Below, one piece after another: positions 1 through 3,000 of a DNA stretch of 28,196 nucleotides (positions are counted from its first letter, which is position 1; each line of letters begins with the position of its first letter). The stretch spans positions 1 through 28,196 of the forward strand of contig JAWANB010000007.1 in assembly GCA_038895675.1 (NCBI GenBank), given 5' to 3'. Made by a program: the position numbers. The DNA is from Candidatus Iainarchaeum sp. Its GTDB lineage: Archaea; Iainarchaeota; Iainarchaeia; Iainarchaeales; Iainarchaeaceae.

Positions 1-3000
1 AGAAAATTAGGTTTTGTAGTAGACTTATTTATTAAAAAAATGAAAGAAGCAAAAGACCAAATAAAAAGAGAGCTCACATAATTTGCTTGACTTTAATTTT
101 ATAAATTTCATGCTATTTCAATTAAATAACCGCTGGGATGACAGAGCGGCCATGTACTCGCCTGCAGTAACCCTTTTCTTTCCTTTTTACCAAGGAAAGA
201 AAAGCGTTAACGGAAAAGAAAGGTGGTGTTTTTTTCTTTCCTTTTTACCAAGGAAAGAAAAGCGTTAACGGATAACCCTTTTTTGCTGGTCGCAAAAAAG
301 CGTTAACGGAAATGGTATTAGTCCTTTTTTGCTGGTCGCAAAAAAGCGTTAACGGAAATGGTATTAGTCCTTTTTTGCTGGTCGCAAAAAAGCGTTAACG
401 GAAAAAATTCAATAAATAATTTGCGGCAAGCGAGCAAGGAGGGTTCGACTCCCTCTCCCAGCTTATTTTATATTTATAAAAATACATTATAATGAGTAGC
501 TAATATGCAAGAAATTTATTCTCCATTTCAAAGAGCTTTGTTAGTAATTTTTCTTATTTTATTATATTTCGCGTTTCAAATTTCAATAGTATTTGGCATT
601 GTAGGGCCTTATTTTTGCCTATTAATTTTTTTTGCTGTGATGACGTTTATAACAAAAAAGCGTTCTGAATATTCTTACAAACCAAGCGACAATGAAGAAT
701 TTGCAAAATTTATAGACAAAAATGTAGAACTGATAATTATTTTGAGTCATTTATTCTTCTCTTTACTCGGTTTAGTAAGCATTTTTATTGTTCAAGACAT
801 TGTACATAAAATACTAATATTTTTAATCGCGATTGGATTTATTGTTAACGGAGTGATAGCTTATAATAAGGTAAAGCACTAAAAAGTGATTTGCATATGT
901 TTTTTTTCTGTTTACAATATAAAAACAACTTTAATATTGATTCTCCTTTTGTTTTTGTTTATTGGTTGTTTTACTAATAAAAATAGTCAAATAAACCAAG
1001 AAACAGCCAAATAGTATTATAAGTAATAGCAACGGAGTGCTCGTATATACTTATTATAATCTAAATGTAATCTATGTTCTATGGCGACACGACAATAAAT
1101 TAATTAGATTCTCACTAAACAAAAAGCTTTTTGATAGTGAAGGTTTCAGCAATCCAGTGATCCAAAAGTATATTAATAAATTTCCACCTAACCAAGACAA
1201 TTAAAGTTTGCGCTTATAATTTTTTGTTGTTCGTGAATTTTTGTATTTCCATTATAGCAAACCCAACTAAAGAAATACCAAGTATTGTTGCCCAATCAAT
1301 TAGGCTTATTGAAGTAGTGTTGAATATTTTTTGCATTGGCTCAAAATAAATTATTAATATTTGCAATAATATTGAAGAAGCTATTCCTAACACGAGCATT
1401 CTGTTTTGCAAAATATTATTGAGGCTTTTCAGAGGCTCTGAACTTCTGCTCCCTATTGCTGCAAACATTTGTAATACTACTAATGTTGTGAACGCCATTG
1501 TTTGAGCTTTTGTAATCCCCTGATTCAAGTAAGCGTAAAATAGTATAAAACTAAAGAAACCCATTATTAAGCCAAAAGTAATTATCATTCTCAAGTTTTC
1601 TTTATTCAATGGTTCTTCTTCGGCCTTTATTGGAGGCTTTTCAAGCATGTTTTGCTTTGTTTTTTCAAAACTTAATCCTATTGCAGGCAAGCCATCAGTA
1701 AGTAAGTTCATTGTTAGTATTTGTAGTGGTGTTAGTGGAAATGGCAAGTTTGCAAGCATTGTTGATACTACTATAACAACTTCTCCTAAATTGCATGACA
1801 ACAGATATTTTGTTGAGTTAATTATTTTTTCATAAACATTTTTTCCTTCATTTATTCCTATTATTATTGTTGTAAAATTATCATCCGCTATTGTTGCGCT
1901 TGAAACTTCTTTAGCTACATCTGTTCCAGTTATTCCCATTGATATTCCTAAATCAGCATTTTTTAGTGCAGGAGCATCATTTACTCCATCGCCTGTCATG
2001 GCCACTATTTTTCCTTGTTTTTTTAGAGCCTTTATTATTCTAAGTTTTTGAATAGGTAGTGTTCTCGCTATTATGCTTGTATCTTTTATTATTCTTTCTA
2101 ATTCTTCATCGCTCATTGCTTCTATTTCTTCGCCTGTGATTACTTTGTCCCCTTCTTCATACAAACCTATTTTTTCAGCTATTGCCTTTGCAGTTTCTTT
2201 ATGATCGCCTGTTATCATTATTACTTTTATTCCTGATTTTTTTGCCTGTTCTATTGCTTCTTTTACTTTTTCTCTTGGTGGATCTATCATCCCAACCAAA
2301 CCTAAAAATGTGAGGTTTGATTCGACTTTTTCTACTTCTTGAAAGTCTTCTTTGATTTCTTTGTACGCAAAACCTATTACTCTTAACGCCTCTTTCCCGA
2401 ATTTCAAGTTTGTTTCCAAAATTTGTTGTTTATCCTTTTTTGTTAGTTTGATTTCTTTGTTTTCCTTTACTATTTTTATGCTTTCTCTTAAAACAATGTC
2501 AGGTGCACCTTTTACTAAAACTAATTTCTTTCCATTTTCTTCTATTATAACGCTCATCATTTTTCTTTCTGAGTCAAAAGGAAACTCTTTTACTTTTTTT
2601 GTTTTTTGTTTTTCTTTTTCAACGTCAAAACCGAACTTTTCTGCGAGAACAAGTAATGATGCTTCCGTCGGGTCTCCTATGACTATTGTTTTTTGTTGAT
2701 TTCTAATTATTTTTGCGTCATTGCAAAGTACTGCTGTTTTTGCAATAATTTGTAATGCTTTGTCATTTTCTGGTTTAGGTGTTATTTTTCCTTCTTTCGT
2801 GTAACCCGAGCCAGTTATTTCATATTCTTTTTGTGTTGTGTAAACTTTTGTTACAGTCATTTCATTTTTTGTTAGAGTACCTGTTTTGTCGGTACAAATA
2901 ACATTTATCTGTCCTAAAGTTTGTATGGCGTCTAGTTTTCTTATTATCATTTTCTTTTTTGTGAGTTCTTGAGCGCCTAAAGCCAAGCTTATTGTTACTA

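What a model noticed while it worked through the whole genome (the two positions that open the first line are those of the whole stretch)
132..463. Mirror-repeat hairpin element fills giant tRNA introns
Five single-copy tRNA genes of this genome carry 126-261 nt introns at the canonical 37/38 site, each framed by a bulge-helix-bulge motif: Cys-GCA C7:132-463, Ser-GGA C1:95609-95920, Arg-UCU C6:7822-8067, Ser-GCU C12:4381-4622, Tyr-GUA C15:15929-16127. The introns are built from one conserved ~45-58 nt element that is absent from Rfam. It consists of (U)AACCC, a pyrimidine arm, a short loop, the complementary purine arm, the octamer CGUUAACG, GAAAAG and a second purine arm. That second arm is the mirror image (not the repeat or complement) of the first, i.e. 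a hairpin plus a strand with triplex/H-DNA-type symmetry. Units are tandemly multiplied (5 in tRNA-Cys, 4 in tRNA-Ser). They also lie o [...]
Evidence so far: Detection: ARAGORN with introns, BHB motifs read from sequence, TRF, nhmmer 17 copies at E<1e-4. Covariance model R1: 20 hits at E<0.01 in G000, 19 of them at the 7 loci. Hairpin: 94.9% of 315 cells paired vs <=72.5% when slid, 10 of 13 pairs with compensatory changes, 0 of 500 shuffles as good. Mirror symmetry arm2/arm3: 10.0 of 12 within units vs 8.3 across units (0 of 10000 permutations, call 29) and vs 7.5 for a direct repeat. Spread: R1 hits (E<=1e-5) in 17 of 19 other Iainarchaeaceae genomes (1-24 copies each) and in 11 of 131 other Iainarchaeota sampled. 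Of 40 relatives' loci fetched, by the hit coordinates of call 123 and the ARAGORN calls of call 126 (my reading), 16 lie in tRNA int [...]
(Added by a program. Inside this text positions count along the whole contig: contig position 1 is position 1 of the stretch shown here. "Call 12" and the like, gene names such as g00115 and contig names such as C1 are that model's own, and its searches are not shown. The text may have been shortened before it was handed on; [...] marks where a part breaks off. The agent that wrote the report below was given it as the finding of a first reader that could run no searches.)

Follow-up and report, generated by a model that had tools for sequence, protein, structure and literature searches.

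The report
Triplex-type repeat inflating archaeal tRNA introns
A tRNA-Cys gene carries a 261-base intron made of five copies of a small repeat (a hairpin plus a mirror-image third arm) that relatives place against the ends of many genes, an archaeal cousin of bacterial triple-helix-forming repeats.

Summary
Window 132-463 is a tRNA-Cys(GCA) gene: exons 132-167 and 429-463, and a 261-nt intron at 37/38 with a readable bulge-helix-bulge motif. The intron holds five copies of a ~60-nt element.

I refined the anatomy. It is a head (YAACC), a pyrimidine arm, a loop, a purine arm, an 8-mer whose bases 2-5 pair back to the head, and a third arm that mirrors the purine arm.

The mirror is real. In 98 copies from relatives it matches 11.7 of 13 positions, against 7.2 for a direct repeat, and it co-varies with the hairpin. 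In this window only unit 1 has the full mirror arm.

The element is not intron-specific. Of 108 copies from relatives, 74 have the head touching an exon edge of a tRNA, SRP RNA or RNase P RNA gene, always pointing away. Others start at stop codons.

It is dispensable. A same-genus genome lacks it and has 27-33-nt introns in the orthologous tRNA genes. It is also prone to tandem expansion.

The architecture matches the known "intrastrand triplex" repeats (BoxC/PIT/TM-ECO of E. coli). I call it a new variant of a known kind. Function, and whether the fold forms in DNA or RNA, remain open.

The parts
132..167 (+). tRNA-Cys(GCA) 5' exon (positions 1-37; no position 17)
   Evidence: ARAGORN gene; exon boundaries from my reading of the sequence
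168..428 (+). 261-nt intron at canonical position 37/38, framed by a bulge-helix-bulge motif
   Evidence: Intron length from ARAGORN; BHB read by hand (4-bp central helix 162-165/423-426, two 3-nt bulges, 2-bp inner helix)
429..463 (+). tRNA-Cys 3' exon (positions 38-73)
   Evidence: T-arm GAGGG/TTCGACT/CCCTC read from the sequence
168..228 (+). Unit 1, the only complete one: head TAACC 168-172, pyrimidine arm 173-185, loop 186-191, purine arm 192-204, octamer 205-212, mirror arm 213-223, tail TGGTG 224-228 (complementary to loop TACCA)
   Evidence: CM hit 168-234, E 1.4e-14; MFE fold ((((.(((((((((((((......))))))))))))).)))) on both DNA strands; mirror 11 of 13 vs direct 5 of 13
229..272 (+). 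Unit 2: pyrimidine arm 231-243, loop 244-249, purine arm 250-262, octamer 263-270; no head and no mirror arm (truncated)
   Evidence: nhmmer hit 234-282; mirror 4 of 13
273..322 (+). Unit 3: head TAACC 273-277, short hairpin 278-300 (CTTTTTTGC/TGGTC/GCAAAAAAG), octamer 301-308, degenerate third arm 309-322
   Evidence: CM hit 273-330, E 1.8e-8; fold; mirror 6 of 13
323..428 (+). Units 4 and 5 (octamers 347-354 and 393-400), exact tandem copies of unit 3, followed by the intron's 3' end with TTGCGGCA, which forms the splice-site helix
   Evidence: TRF 277-404, period 46, 2.8 copies, 100% matches

Best explanation
Window 132-463 is a tRNA-Cys gene. Its ordinary 37/38 bulge-helix-bulge intron has been inflated to 261 nt by tandem copies of a lineage-specific structured repeat.

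The repeat is an A/T-rich 'intrastrand triplex motif'. It has the same three-block plan as the bacterial BoxC/PIT/TM-ECO repeats: a pyrimidine arm, a loop, the complementary purine arm, a short linker, and a third arm that reads as the mirror of the purine arm.

Shown by covariation: a long hairpin whose base is a 4-bp lower stem (head YAAC with bases 2-5 of the 8-mer) above a conserved C.C mismatch.

Inferred: in single-stranded form the third arm lies antiparallel along the purine arm, one base per base pair (G with G-C, A with A-T). In one subfamily it is clamped at the far end by pairing of its tail with the hairpin loop. The complementary strand carries the matching pyrimidine-motif version, so both DNA strands can fold.

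The element is an accessory and unstable piece of DNA:
- It is absent from close relatives.
- It is copied between unrelated introns.
- It is duplicated in tandem.
- It is kept only where it does no harm, namely inside spliced introns, in leaders and trailers that are cut off stable RNAs, and just after stop codons.

In introns it is removed by the splicing endonuclease, and its head (AACC, with GGUU at the far end) supplies the inner helix of the splice motif. Whether it also serves the cell is not known.
For: Hairpin and lower stem:
- On A3, 97.4% of 912 cells pair against <=69.6% when slid; 9 of 14 pairs change on both sides; 0 of 500 shuffles reach this.
- Head1-oct5, head2-oct4, head3-oct3 and head4-oct2 are Watson-Crick in 95, 96, 96 and 87 of 99 copies, with 3-4 pair types each. 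C.C occurs at head5/oct1 in 85 of 99.

Mirror arm:
- 98 usable copies of 108: mirror 11.68 of 13 against direct 7.24.
- 51 distinct arm pairs: 10.78 within against 9.30 across; 0 of 10000 permutations reach this.
- At position 1: A/A 29, G/G 21, discordant 1.
- Parallel Y/R' positions 1, 6 and 10: 92.0% of 125 cells against <=55.2% when slid.
- In 15 introns holding an inverted pair, at 101 informative positions the third arm follows its own hairpin 82 times, the partner 8 times, neither 11 times.

Loop-tail pairing: longest Watson-Crick run 2.98 against 2.45 shuffled, 0 of 5000. The changes are compensatory (loop TAC with GTGTA, TGC with GTGC, TGAC with GTGTCA).

Both strands count alike: 23 U.G and 24 C.A mismatches among 1292 stem cells counted, 1232 of them Watson-Crick. 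The same fold is the MFE on both DNA strands.

Accessory and unstable:
- 0 to 57 matches per genome.
- G004, of the same genus and 95% complete, has none. Its introns are 33 nt in tRNA-Ser GGA and 27 nt in tRNA-Arg UCU.
- The spt5-rpl11 spacer is 6 nt in G000 but about 140 nt with the element in two relatives. The same holds after the L15e gene.
- The Arg-UCU and Ser-GCU introns of G000 share 94 nt at 96.8% identity.
- There are exact tandem copies and flank duplications.

Same plan as a known kind: PMC4666352 (sections read) describes class II motifs, a dispersed repeat, inverted pairs of two subtypes, and genomic instability.
Against: - No physical evidence exists for a triplex in DNA or RNA. 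It rests on symmetry and covariation among related copies, which overstate independence.
- The strict head-first placement is not explained by mere tolerance. All 31 copies that abut an RNA-gene end have the head proximal, none the tail.
- The five best copies outside the family all sit at the 5' side of tRNA introns, in Leu-UAA, Arg-UCU and Pro-UGG, which also carry the element inside the family. This fits old, conserved, possibly useful intron structure.
- No copying mechanism is known. Y1 transposase matches 9 of 23 genomes and none in G000. Reverse transcriptase matches 0 of 23.
- The linker is 8 nt, longer than the 1-6 nt used to define such motifs in ITxF.
- The lower stem and a tight fold-back of the third arm compete for the same bases.
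- The hits analysed are the best-scoring ones, not all of the 409 family-wide matches.
Confidence: 0.5

Rival explanations
1. It is a host-useful RNA module. A self-contained, fast-folding cap sits on every part of a precursor that is later removed (5' leader, both intron ends, 3' trailer, 3' UTR). It keeps flanks from mispairing with the exon, offers the inner BHB helix, and may block exonucleases. The inverted orientation would give a U.A-U-rich pyrimidine-motif triple helix like the ENE/MALAT1 type.
For: - Head-first placement at exon edges: 26 intron 5' sides, 17 intron 3' sides, 16 leaders and 15 trailers among 108 copies.
- The copy abuts the mature 3' end of SRP RNA in 2 genomes and of RNase P RNA in 1.
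- AACC/GGUU forms the inner splice helix.
- Copies outside the family lie only in tRNA introns, 5 of 5 fetched.
- The same tRNA leader (Cys) carries a copy in at least four genomes of three genera (G003, G005, G014, G015), with arms that differ in a three-way compensated manner.
Against: - It is dispensable. G004 matures the same tRNAs with 27-33-nt introns and no element. G000's RNase P RNA is followed by a plain T8 run.
- There is no excess of G.U over A.C in the stems in either orientation: intron sense 6 against 6, intron antisense 3 against 3.
- The commonest transcribed orientation would need a purine-motif triplex, which PMC4666352 (introduction) reports as not forming in RNA.
- No leader copy and trailer copy were seen on the same gene (0 among 16 leader copies and 15 trailer copies).
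- No RNA data exist.
Confidence: 0.27
2. It is DNA-level gene-end punctuation. A non-B DNA structure (cruciform or H-DNA-type triplex on both strands) just outside highly transcribed genes acts as a transcription roadblock or terminator, or as a buffer for supercoils.
For: - It lies where the oligo-T terminator normally lies. G000's RNase P RNA gene is followed by T8, while the G022 copy (locus L019) is followed by CAACC-T5-C-T3. G004 tRNA trailers are T-rich.
- It sits 0-25 nt after stop codons of Spt5 (two genomes), L15e, KaiC-like, EamA and MCM genes.
- Both strands are equally constrained.
- GAA/TTC-like arms are classic triplex formers (PMC7515735, abstract in search listing only).
Against: - The same element sits inside introns of single-copy tRNA genes, which must be read through.
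- No U-run follows it in trailers: 1 of 15 has T>=5 within 35 nt.
- The bacterial analogue showed no promoter or terminator activity (PMC4666352, citing earlier work).
- T5 runs are common in this 33% G+C genome (G+C; the frequency of T5 runs is my impression from reading the sequence, not a count).
Confidence: 0.13
3. It is a non-autonomous transposable element (MITE/REP-like) moved by a transposase supplied in trans.
For: - It is a dispersed family with up to 57 matches per genome.
- Copies occur as inverted pairs.
- It is present or absent at orthologous sites.
- Near-identical copies lie in unrelated introns, with the left border at the head.
Against: - Y1 (REP-type) transposase matches 9 of 23 genomes. 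It is absent from G000 and from G005, G007, G009, G010, G012 and G015, which carry 10-37 matches each.
- No terminal inverted repeats flank a unit, and I saw no target duplications, though I did not screen for them systematically.
- No match in phage, plasmid or IMG/VR collections.
- Other transposase families were not searched.
Confidence: 0.07
4. The mirror symmetry is a by-product of low-complexity purine runs, and only the hairpin is real.
For: - Arms are A-rich, and several are themselves mirror-symmetric (for example GAAAAGAAAAG), so unrelated arms already match 9.3 of 13.
- In this window, 4 of 5 units lack a convincing mirror arm.
Against: - Non-symmetric arms are mirrored, not repeated: 11.68 against 7.24 of 13.
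- G positions shift together in all three arms.
- 0 of 10000 permutations reach the observed score.
- Slid controls give <=55.2% against 92.0%.
- The third arm follows its own hairpin in 82 of 101 informative positions.
Confidence: 0.03

Closest known systems
Intrastrand triplex repeats of bacteria (BoxC / PIT elements / TM-ECO; class II purine motif), Holder et al. 2015, PMC4666352 (introduction, three results sections and discussion read)
   Same: - Three blocks on one strand: pyrimidine arm, loop, purine arm, short loop, second purine arm that is antiparallel-identical.
- The complementary strand carries a pyrimidine-motif version.
- It is a dispersed non-coding repeat with very different copy numbers in close relatives.
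- Pairs occur in inverted configuration, always of two subtypes.
- It is linked to local deletions, mutations and rearrangements.
- No transposase is linked to it.
   Different: - A/T-rich (GAAAAGAAAG-type) arms of 11-14 nt instead of G/C-rich 9-nt arms; no sequence similarity.
- An 8-nt linker that doubles as a lower stem with a 5-nt head.
- The arms vary and co-vary, whereas BoxC is nearly invariant.
- It lies inside tRNA introns and exactly against gene ends, whereas TM-ECO shows no fixed distance to genes.
- Archaeal host. In vitro triplex formation is shown for TM-ECO but not tested here.
Recurrent G-rich repeat with adjacent C-track in Methanomicrobiaceae (PMC8044849; passages read)
   Same: An archaeal intergenic repeat whose single strand can fold into a hairpin plus an antiparallel purine third strand.
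   Different: It is G/C-rich and competes with a G-quadruplex. The third strand is 5' of the hairpin. No link to tRNA genes is reported in the passages I read.
Conserved intron families in Thermoproteales tRNA genes ('intron transposition', Fujishima et al. 2010, as summarised in PMC4090602; passage read)
   Same: Very similar intron sequences occur in tRNA genes of different identity. The mechanism is unknown and thought to act on DNA. The BHB motif is needed at the junctions.
   Different: - Here all introns are at the canonical 37/38 site.
- The shared part is a discrete structured unit that also lives outside introns.
- Units are tandemly multiplied, giving 232-261-nt introns, against the 11-129 nt range quoted in that 2014 review.
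REP/BIME elements and MITEs (as summarised in the introduction of PMC4666352; the link of REPs to RAYT/Y1 transposases is recalled, not from a call)
   Same: Short palindromic repeats at gene ends, occurring as singles, inverted pairs and clusters.
   Different: No matching transposase was found. The third, mirror arm has no counterpart in REPs.
H-DNA mirror repeats and GAA/TTC triplexes (PMC4666352 introduction; PMC7515735 abstract in search listing only)
   Same: A homopurine mirror repeat with a short spacer; G.G-C and A.A-T triads.
   Different: An extra complementary pyrimidine arm on the same strand lets each strand fold on its own, leaving no orphan strand.
ENE / MALAT1-type RNA triple helices (recalled, no call)
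   Same: In the inverted orientation the transcript would read third strand (U-rich), U-rich arm, loop, A-rich arm. That is a possible U.A-U triple helix at an RNA end.
   Different: - The sense orientation has one U-rich and two A-rich strands.
- There is no U-rich internal loop clamping a tail.
- No RNA evidence exists.

Membership tests
Intrastrand triplex motif, class II (Y - R - reverse-Hoogsteen arm) | Three consecutive blocks on one strand: pyrimidine arm, complementary purine arm, third arm | tested here: met
   Alignments; hairpin 97.4% paired
Intrastrand triplex motif, class II (Y - R - reverse-Hoogsteen arm) | Third arm antiparallel-identical to the purine arm (G.G-C, A.A-T or T.A-T triads) | tested here: met
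   11.68 of 13 mirror against 7.24 direct, 98 copies; 92.0% against <=55.2% slid
Intrastrand triplex motif, class II (Y - R - reverse-Hoogsteen arm) | Short loops (1-6 nt in ITxF; 0-10 nt in the earlier search quoted in PMC4666352) | tested here: inconclusive
   First loop is 2-8 nt in 89 of 99 copies. Second linker is 8 nt in 99 of 108, outside the ITxF range but inside the older one.
Intrastrand triplex motif, class II (Y - R - reverse-Hoogsteen arm) | Triplex formation of the isolated strand (CD, NMR, melting) | not testable with these tools
   No physical method available. Secondary-structure folding shows only the hairpin.
BoxC / TM-ECO sequence family | Consensus CCCTCNCCC N3-6 GGGNGAGGG N3 GGGNGAGGG | tested here: not met
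   Arms here are T/C and A/G runs such as CTTTTCTTTC / GAAAGAAAAG. It has the same plan but is not the same family.
Archaeal BHB tRNA intron | Intron at 37/38 with two 3-nt bulges separated by a 4-bp helix | tested here: met
   Read by hand for all five G000 genes. The inner helix is only 2 bp in tRNA-Cys and tRNA-Arg.
Archaeal BHB tRNA intron | Removal by splicing endonuclease; spliced tRNA present | not testable with these tools
   RNA runs covered only the conserved 16S part of the locus laid.
REP / RAYT system | Co-occurring Y1 (RAYT-type) transposase | tested here: not met
   PF01797 matches 9 of 23 genomes and none in G000. Genomes with 10-37 element matches lack it.
MITE | Terminal inverted repeats with target-site duplication | not tested
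   I looked at flanks only by eye and noticed none. No systematic screen was made.
Retroposed RNA copy | Reverse transcriptase available | tested here: not met
   PF00078 matches 0 of 23 family genomes.
Intron-borne box C/D guide RNA | C/D boxes; match to an Rfam snoRNA model | tested here: not met
   No Rfam hit at gathering scores. At E<=1 no C/D-box model appears; two H/ACA snoRNA models score 23 and 17 bits, far below their gathering scores of 47 and 74. I saw no C/D boxes in the sequence (my reading).

The most novel reading that the evidence does not exclude
The three-way covariation (pyrimidine arm, purine arm, mirror arm, plus loop-tail pairing) records a real triple-stranded fold that the cell uses. 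Under this reading a triple-helix cap sits head-first on every discarded part of stable-RNA precursors and on mRNA 3' ends in a DPANN family. It would be either a natural long RNA triplex or triplex pseudoknot that guides or protects processing, or a 'double-triplex cruciform' in DNA that punctuates genes. It would be the first comparative-sequence proof of a purine-motif triple helix in nature, and it would tie triplexes to tRNA intron biology.
Probability: 0.2. Interest if true: 0.85.

Novelty: new variant of a known kind. Interest (0 to 1): 0.6.

Why it matters
Intrastrand triplex repeats have been known in bacteria for 25 years, with no function and almost no sequence variation to learn from. 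This archaeal family varies, and the variation is compensated in all three arms. That gives the strongest sequence-only argument so far that such a fold is selected in cells.

It also shows an unusual route to very long archaeal tRNA introns. These reach 232-261 nt, against the 11-129 nt quoted in a 2014 review (PMC4090602). It further shows a striking placement rule, head against exon edges, that any model of tRNA-intron gain, RNA-end formation or repeat spread in reduced archaeal genomes has to explain.

Practically, tRNA finders mislabel these genes. ARAGORN called Gly, Leu and Pyl for what I read as Cys, Ser and Arg.

Tried and rejected
- **RNA evidence.** The four RNA runs laid covered only the conserved 16S part (positions 1-384). 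They showed nothing beyond traces on the spacer, so nothing can be said about transcription.
- **Rfam.** No family at gathering scores. Only sub-threshold hairpin-like chance hits at E<=1.
- **Mobile-element links.**
  - Y1 transposase shows no correlation.
  - Reverse transcriptase matches 0 of 23 genomes.
  - No match in phage or plasmid collections.
  - No exact match of a degenerate core pattern in IMG/VR.
- **Hairpin plus U-run terminator.** Rejected. Only 1 of 15 trailer copies has T>=5 within 35 nt after the third arm.
- **Third arm explained by pairing with the inverted partner in the same intron.** Rejected: 8 against 82 of 101 informative positions.
- **Strand of function from wobble pairs.** No bias: 23 U.G against 24 C.A. 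This fits DNA-level or two-strand constraint but does not prove it.
- **Descent by locus or by genome.** Pairwise identity is 0.816 for the same tRNA in another genome, 0.796 for the same genome and another tRNA, and 0.787 for neither. The differences are too small to decide between vertical descent and conversion.
- **ORF context from stop-to-stop ORFs.** Noisy in this A/T-rich DNA. I rely only on the seven ORFs with a Pfam match.
- **Rows dropped.** 42 of 150 alignment rows shorter than 50 nt, mostly reverse-strand hairpin-only matches. Also 10 of 108 copies with an octamer not 8 nt long, or with N or a cut third arm, before the mirror count.
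Full report
**1. What is in the window**

ARAGORN run with introns on the laid genome finds a tRNA gene at C7:132-463 with a 261-nt intron, but labels it Gly. The tool's default run finds nothing.

Reading the sequence gives a tRNA-Cys(GCA): 5' exon 132-167, intron 168-428, 3' exon 429-463.

The junctions form a bulge-helix-bulge motif:
- Central helix: C162-G426, U163.G425, G164-C424, C165-G423.
- Bulges: A166 G167|U168 and C427 A428|A429.
- Inner helix: a weak 2 bp.

The four other long-intron genes named in the finding are called at the stated coordinates. By my reading they are Ser-GGA, Arg-UCU, Ser-GCU and Tyr-GUA, with 37/38 introns and the same motif. Each anticodon occurs once among the 39 tRNA genes found in this 92%-complete genome.

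**2. The repeat**

The Cys intron holds five units, with the octamer CGTTAACG at 205, 263, 301, 347 and 393. The last three are exact 46-nt tandem copies.

nhmmer seeded with 12 units finds 19 copies at E<=1e-3. All lie at seven loci: the five introns, the 3' trailer of tRNA-Arg (C6:8070-8135), and an array at a contig end (C20).

Rfam has no matching family.

**3. Anatomy, refined with relatives**

I built a covariance model from nine G000 units. It matches 21 of 23 genomes of the family, with 0-57 matches each and 409 in all.

I analysed 108 full-length copies from 66 fetched loci. These came from 150 aligned matches; 42 rows shorter than 50 nt were dropped.

The head YAAC pairs with bases 5 to 2 of the 'octamer': 95, 96, 96 and 87 of 99 copies are Watson-Crick, with C-G, U-A, G-C and A-U all occurring. 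Head base 5 faces octamer base 1 as a conserved C.C mismatch (85 of 99).

On alignment A3 the whole stem is 97.4% paired (912 cells) against at most 69.6% when slid. Nine of 14 pairs change on both sides. A3 was fitted to the model, which favours the structure.

Folding gives this hairpin as the minimum-energy structure on both DNA strands.

**4. The mirror arm**

Anchored at the octamer, the 13 bases after it match the reversed 13 bases before it at 11.68 positions on average. Read as a direct repeat they match 7.24 (98 usable copies).

Among 51 distinct arm pairs the score is 10.78 within units and 9.30 across units. None of 10000 permutations reaches the observed value.

The variable positions co-vary:
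- At position 1: A/A 29, G/G 21, discordant 1.
- Variants in which the C of the pyrimidine arm sits one base further out have the G shifted in both purine arms.

Written as parallel pairs between the pyrimidine arm and the third arm, positions 1, 6 and 10 are complementary in 92.0% of 125 cells, against at most 55.2% when slid.

In 15 introns that hold a sense copy followed by an inverted copy, the two copies have different arms. At 101 informative positions the third arm follows its own hairpin 82 times, the partner's arm 8 times, and neither 11 times. The mirror is therefore a property of each unit. Watson-Crick pairing cannot produce a mirror.

In the subfamily with 4-6-nt loops, the bases after the third arm are complementary to the loop, with compensatory changes. 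A third strand that spans the stem at one base per base pair would be expected to do this.

Copies are related, so all these statistics overstate independence.

In this window only unit 1 has the full mirror arm.

**5. Where the element sits**

Context of the 108 copies:

| Context | Copies |
|---|---|
| 5' side of a tRNA intron, sense, head at the splice site | 26 |
| 3' side of a tRNA intron, inverted | 17 |
| Abutting a tRNA 5' end (within 0-3 nt), on the other strand, pointing away | 16 |
| Abutting the 3' end of a tRNA, SRP RNA (two genomes) or RNase P RNA gene, same strand, pointing away | 15 |
| Other | 34 |

- Two further copies follow 23S and 16S rRNA at 17 and 53 nt.
- No abutting copy has its tail toward the gene.
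- Of the 34 'other' copies, seven directly follow, or contain, the stop codon of a Pfam-supported gene: Spt5 twice, L15e, KaiC-like, EamA, MCM and a glycosyltransferase. The head's TAA can itself be the stop (L008).
- Outside the family, 11 of 131 sampled genomes of the phylum have 1-3 matches. The five best that I fetched all lie at the 5' side of tRNA introns and have the mirror arm.

**6. Accessory and unstable**

- G004, same genus and 95% complete, has no match. Its tRNA-Ser GGA and tRNA-Arg UCU carry 33- and 27-nt introns. Decayed remnants occur in other genes.
- The spt5-rpl11 spacer is 6 nt in G000 but holds the element plus about 70 nt in two relatives. The L15e gene end is likewise empty in G000.
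- In G000 the Arg-UCU and Ser-GCU introns share 94 nt at 96.8% identity, starting at the intron's first bases. Unit 1 of the Cys intron is 93% identical to the tRNA-Arg trailer copy.
- Tandem arrays and duplicated flanks are common.
- Y1 transposase genes occur in 9 of 23 genomes and do not track the element. Reverse transcriptase matches none.
- Phage, plasmid and viral collections have no match.

**7. DNA or RNA?**

Stem mismatches are 23 U.G and 24 C.A among 1292 stem cells counted, 1232 of them Watson-Crick, with no bias in either transcribed orientation. An RNA hairpin under selection should tolerate G.U far better than A.C. Equal counts fit a constraint on both strands, or simply recent mutations.

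Both orientations are certainly transcribed in introns.

In sense orientation the RNA would need a purine-motif triplex, which the literature cited in PMC4666352 reports as not forming in RNA. In the inverted orientation a U.A-U-rich pyrimidine-motif RNA triplex is plausible. No RNA data could be obtained.

**8. Comparison with what is known**

Holder et al. 2015 (PMC4666352; introduction, three results sections and discussion read) describe intrastrand triplex motifs. Their class II is pyrimidine arm, purine arm, reverse-Hoogsteen arm.

The BoxC/PIT/TM-ECO repeat of E. coli is a dispersed intergenic repeat with these properties:
- It forms a triplex as an isolated strand in vitro.
- It occurs as inverted pairs of two subtypes.
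- It differs greatly in number between close strains.
- It marks unstable loci.
- It has no promoter or terminator activity.

A G-rich triplex-capable repeat is also known in Methanomicrobiaceae (PMC8044849, passages read). Similar introns in different tRNA genes are known from Thermoproteales (PMC4090602, passage read).

The present element shares the plan and the behaviour of the first, but not its sequence. It adds a lower stem, natural three-way covariation, intron residence and the head-first placement rule.

I found no paper describing it. The searches were made, over full text of open PMC and bioRxiv only.

**9. Verdict**

My best reading (0.5) is an accessory, unstable intrastrand-triplex-type DNA repeat. 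It is tolerated in discarded RNA segments and just outside genes, and in introns its head has been taken up into the splice motif.

A host-useful RNA cap (0.27) and DNA-level gene-end punctuation (0.13) remain live. The head-first rule and the conservation in introns across families are not explained by tolerance alone.

Noticed in passing
G000 C20:1-400 (L005), minus strand: An array of at least four units runs into the contig end. A degenerate fifth copy with linker CTTGACC and a mirrored arm lies about 100 nt upstream. No tRNA or Rfam family is found beside it, so what gene it flanks is unknown.
   Followed up: partly
L009, L014, L018, L051 (relatives), 10-25 nt beyond the third arm of copies that abut tRNA 5' ends: A conserved TTAAAAGCTYGACCAAAAAAGA motif. 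On the tRNA strand it reads ...GGTCRAGCTTTTAA and resembles the TTTTAWA boxes upstream of element-free tRNA genes in G004. It may be the tRNA promoter. That would place the transcription start near or inside the inverted copy.
   Followed up: no
L018:1361-1463 and L018:1565-1679: Two copies, one in the leader and one in the intron of the same tRNA-Ser, carry the same 49-nt G+C-rich insertion in the hairpin loop. This suggests copying between leader and intron.
   Followed up: no
L012 and L031 (orthologous loci in G014 and G011); L024 (G019): About 40-50 nt of flank are duplicated on both sides of the element. In L012 and L031 the duplicated flank includes what looks like the 3' end of a gene on the other strand.
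   Followed up: no
window 229-235, 278-283, 325-330, 371-376: T7 and T6 runs lie inside the intron of a single-copy tRNA gene. In the same genome the RNase P RNA gene (C36:1363-1642) is followed by a T8 run. Read-through of such runs must therefore be possible, or expression is reduced.
   Followed up: no
G000 C1:95609-95920, C6:7822-8067, C7:132-463: ARAGORN places the long introns wrongly and reports Leu(tag), Pyl(cta) and Gly(gcc) for genes that I read as Ser-GGA, Arg-UCU and Cys-GCA. Automatic tRNA inventories of these genomes will be wrong.
   Followed up: yes
mirror position 12 in 51 distinct arm pairs: Where the purine arm has a C (an inverted C-G pair at the top of the stem), the third arm has T in 8 of 10 cases. 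I recall that T is the preferred third-strand base at such inversions in antiparallel triplexes, but I could not confirm this in the papers I opened.
   Followed up: partly
G000 C16:6524-6680: tRNA-Pro(CGG) has an 81-nt intron with no copy of the element, so long introns in this genome are not all built from it.
   Followed up: no
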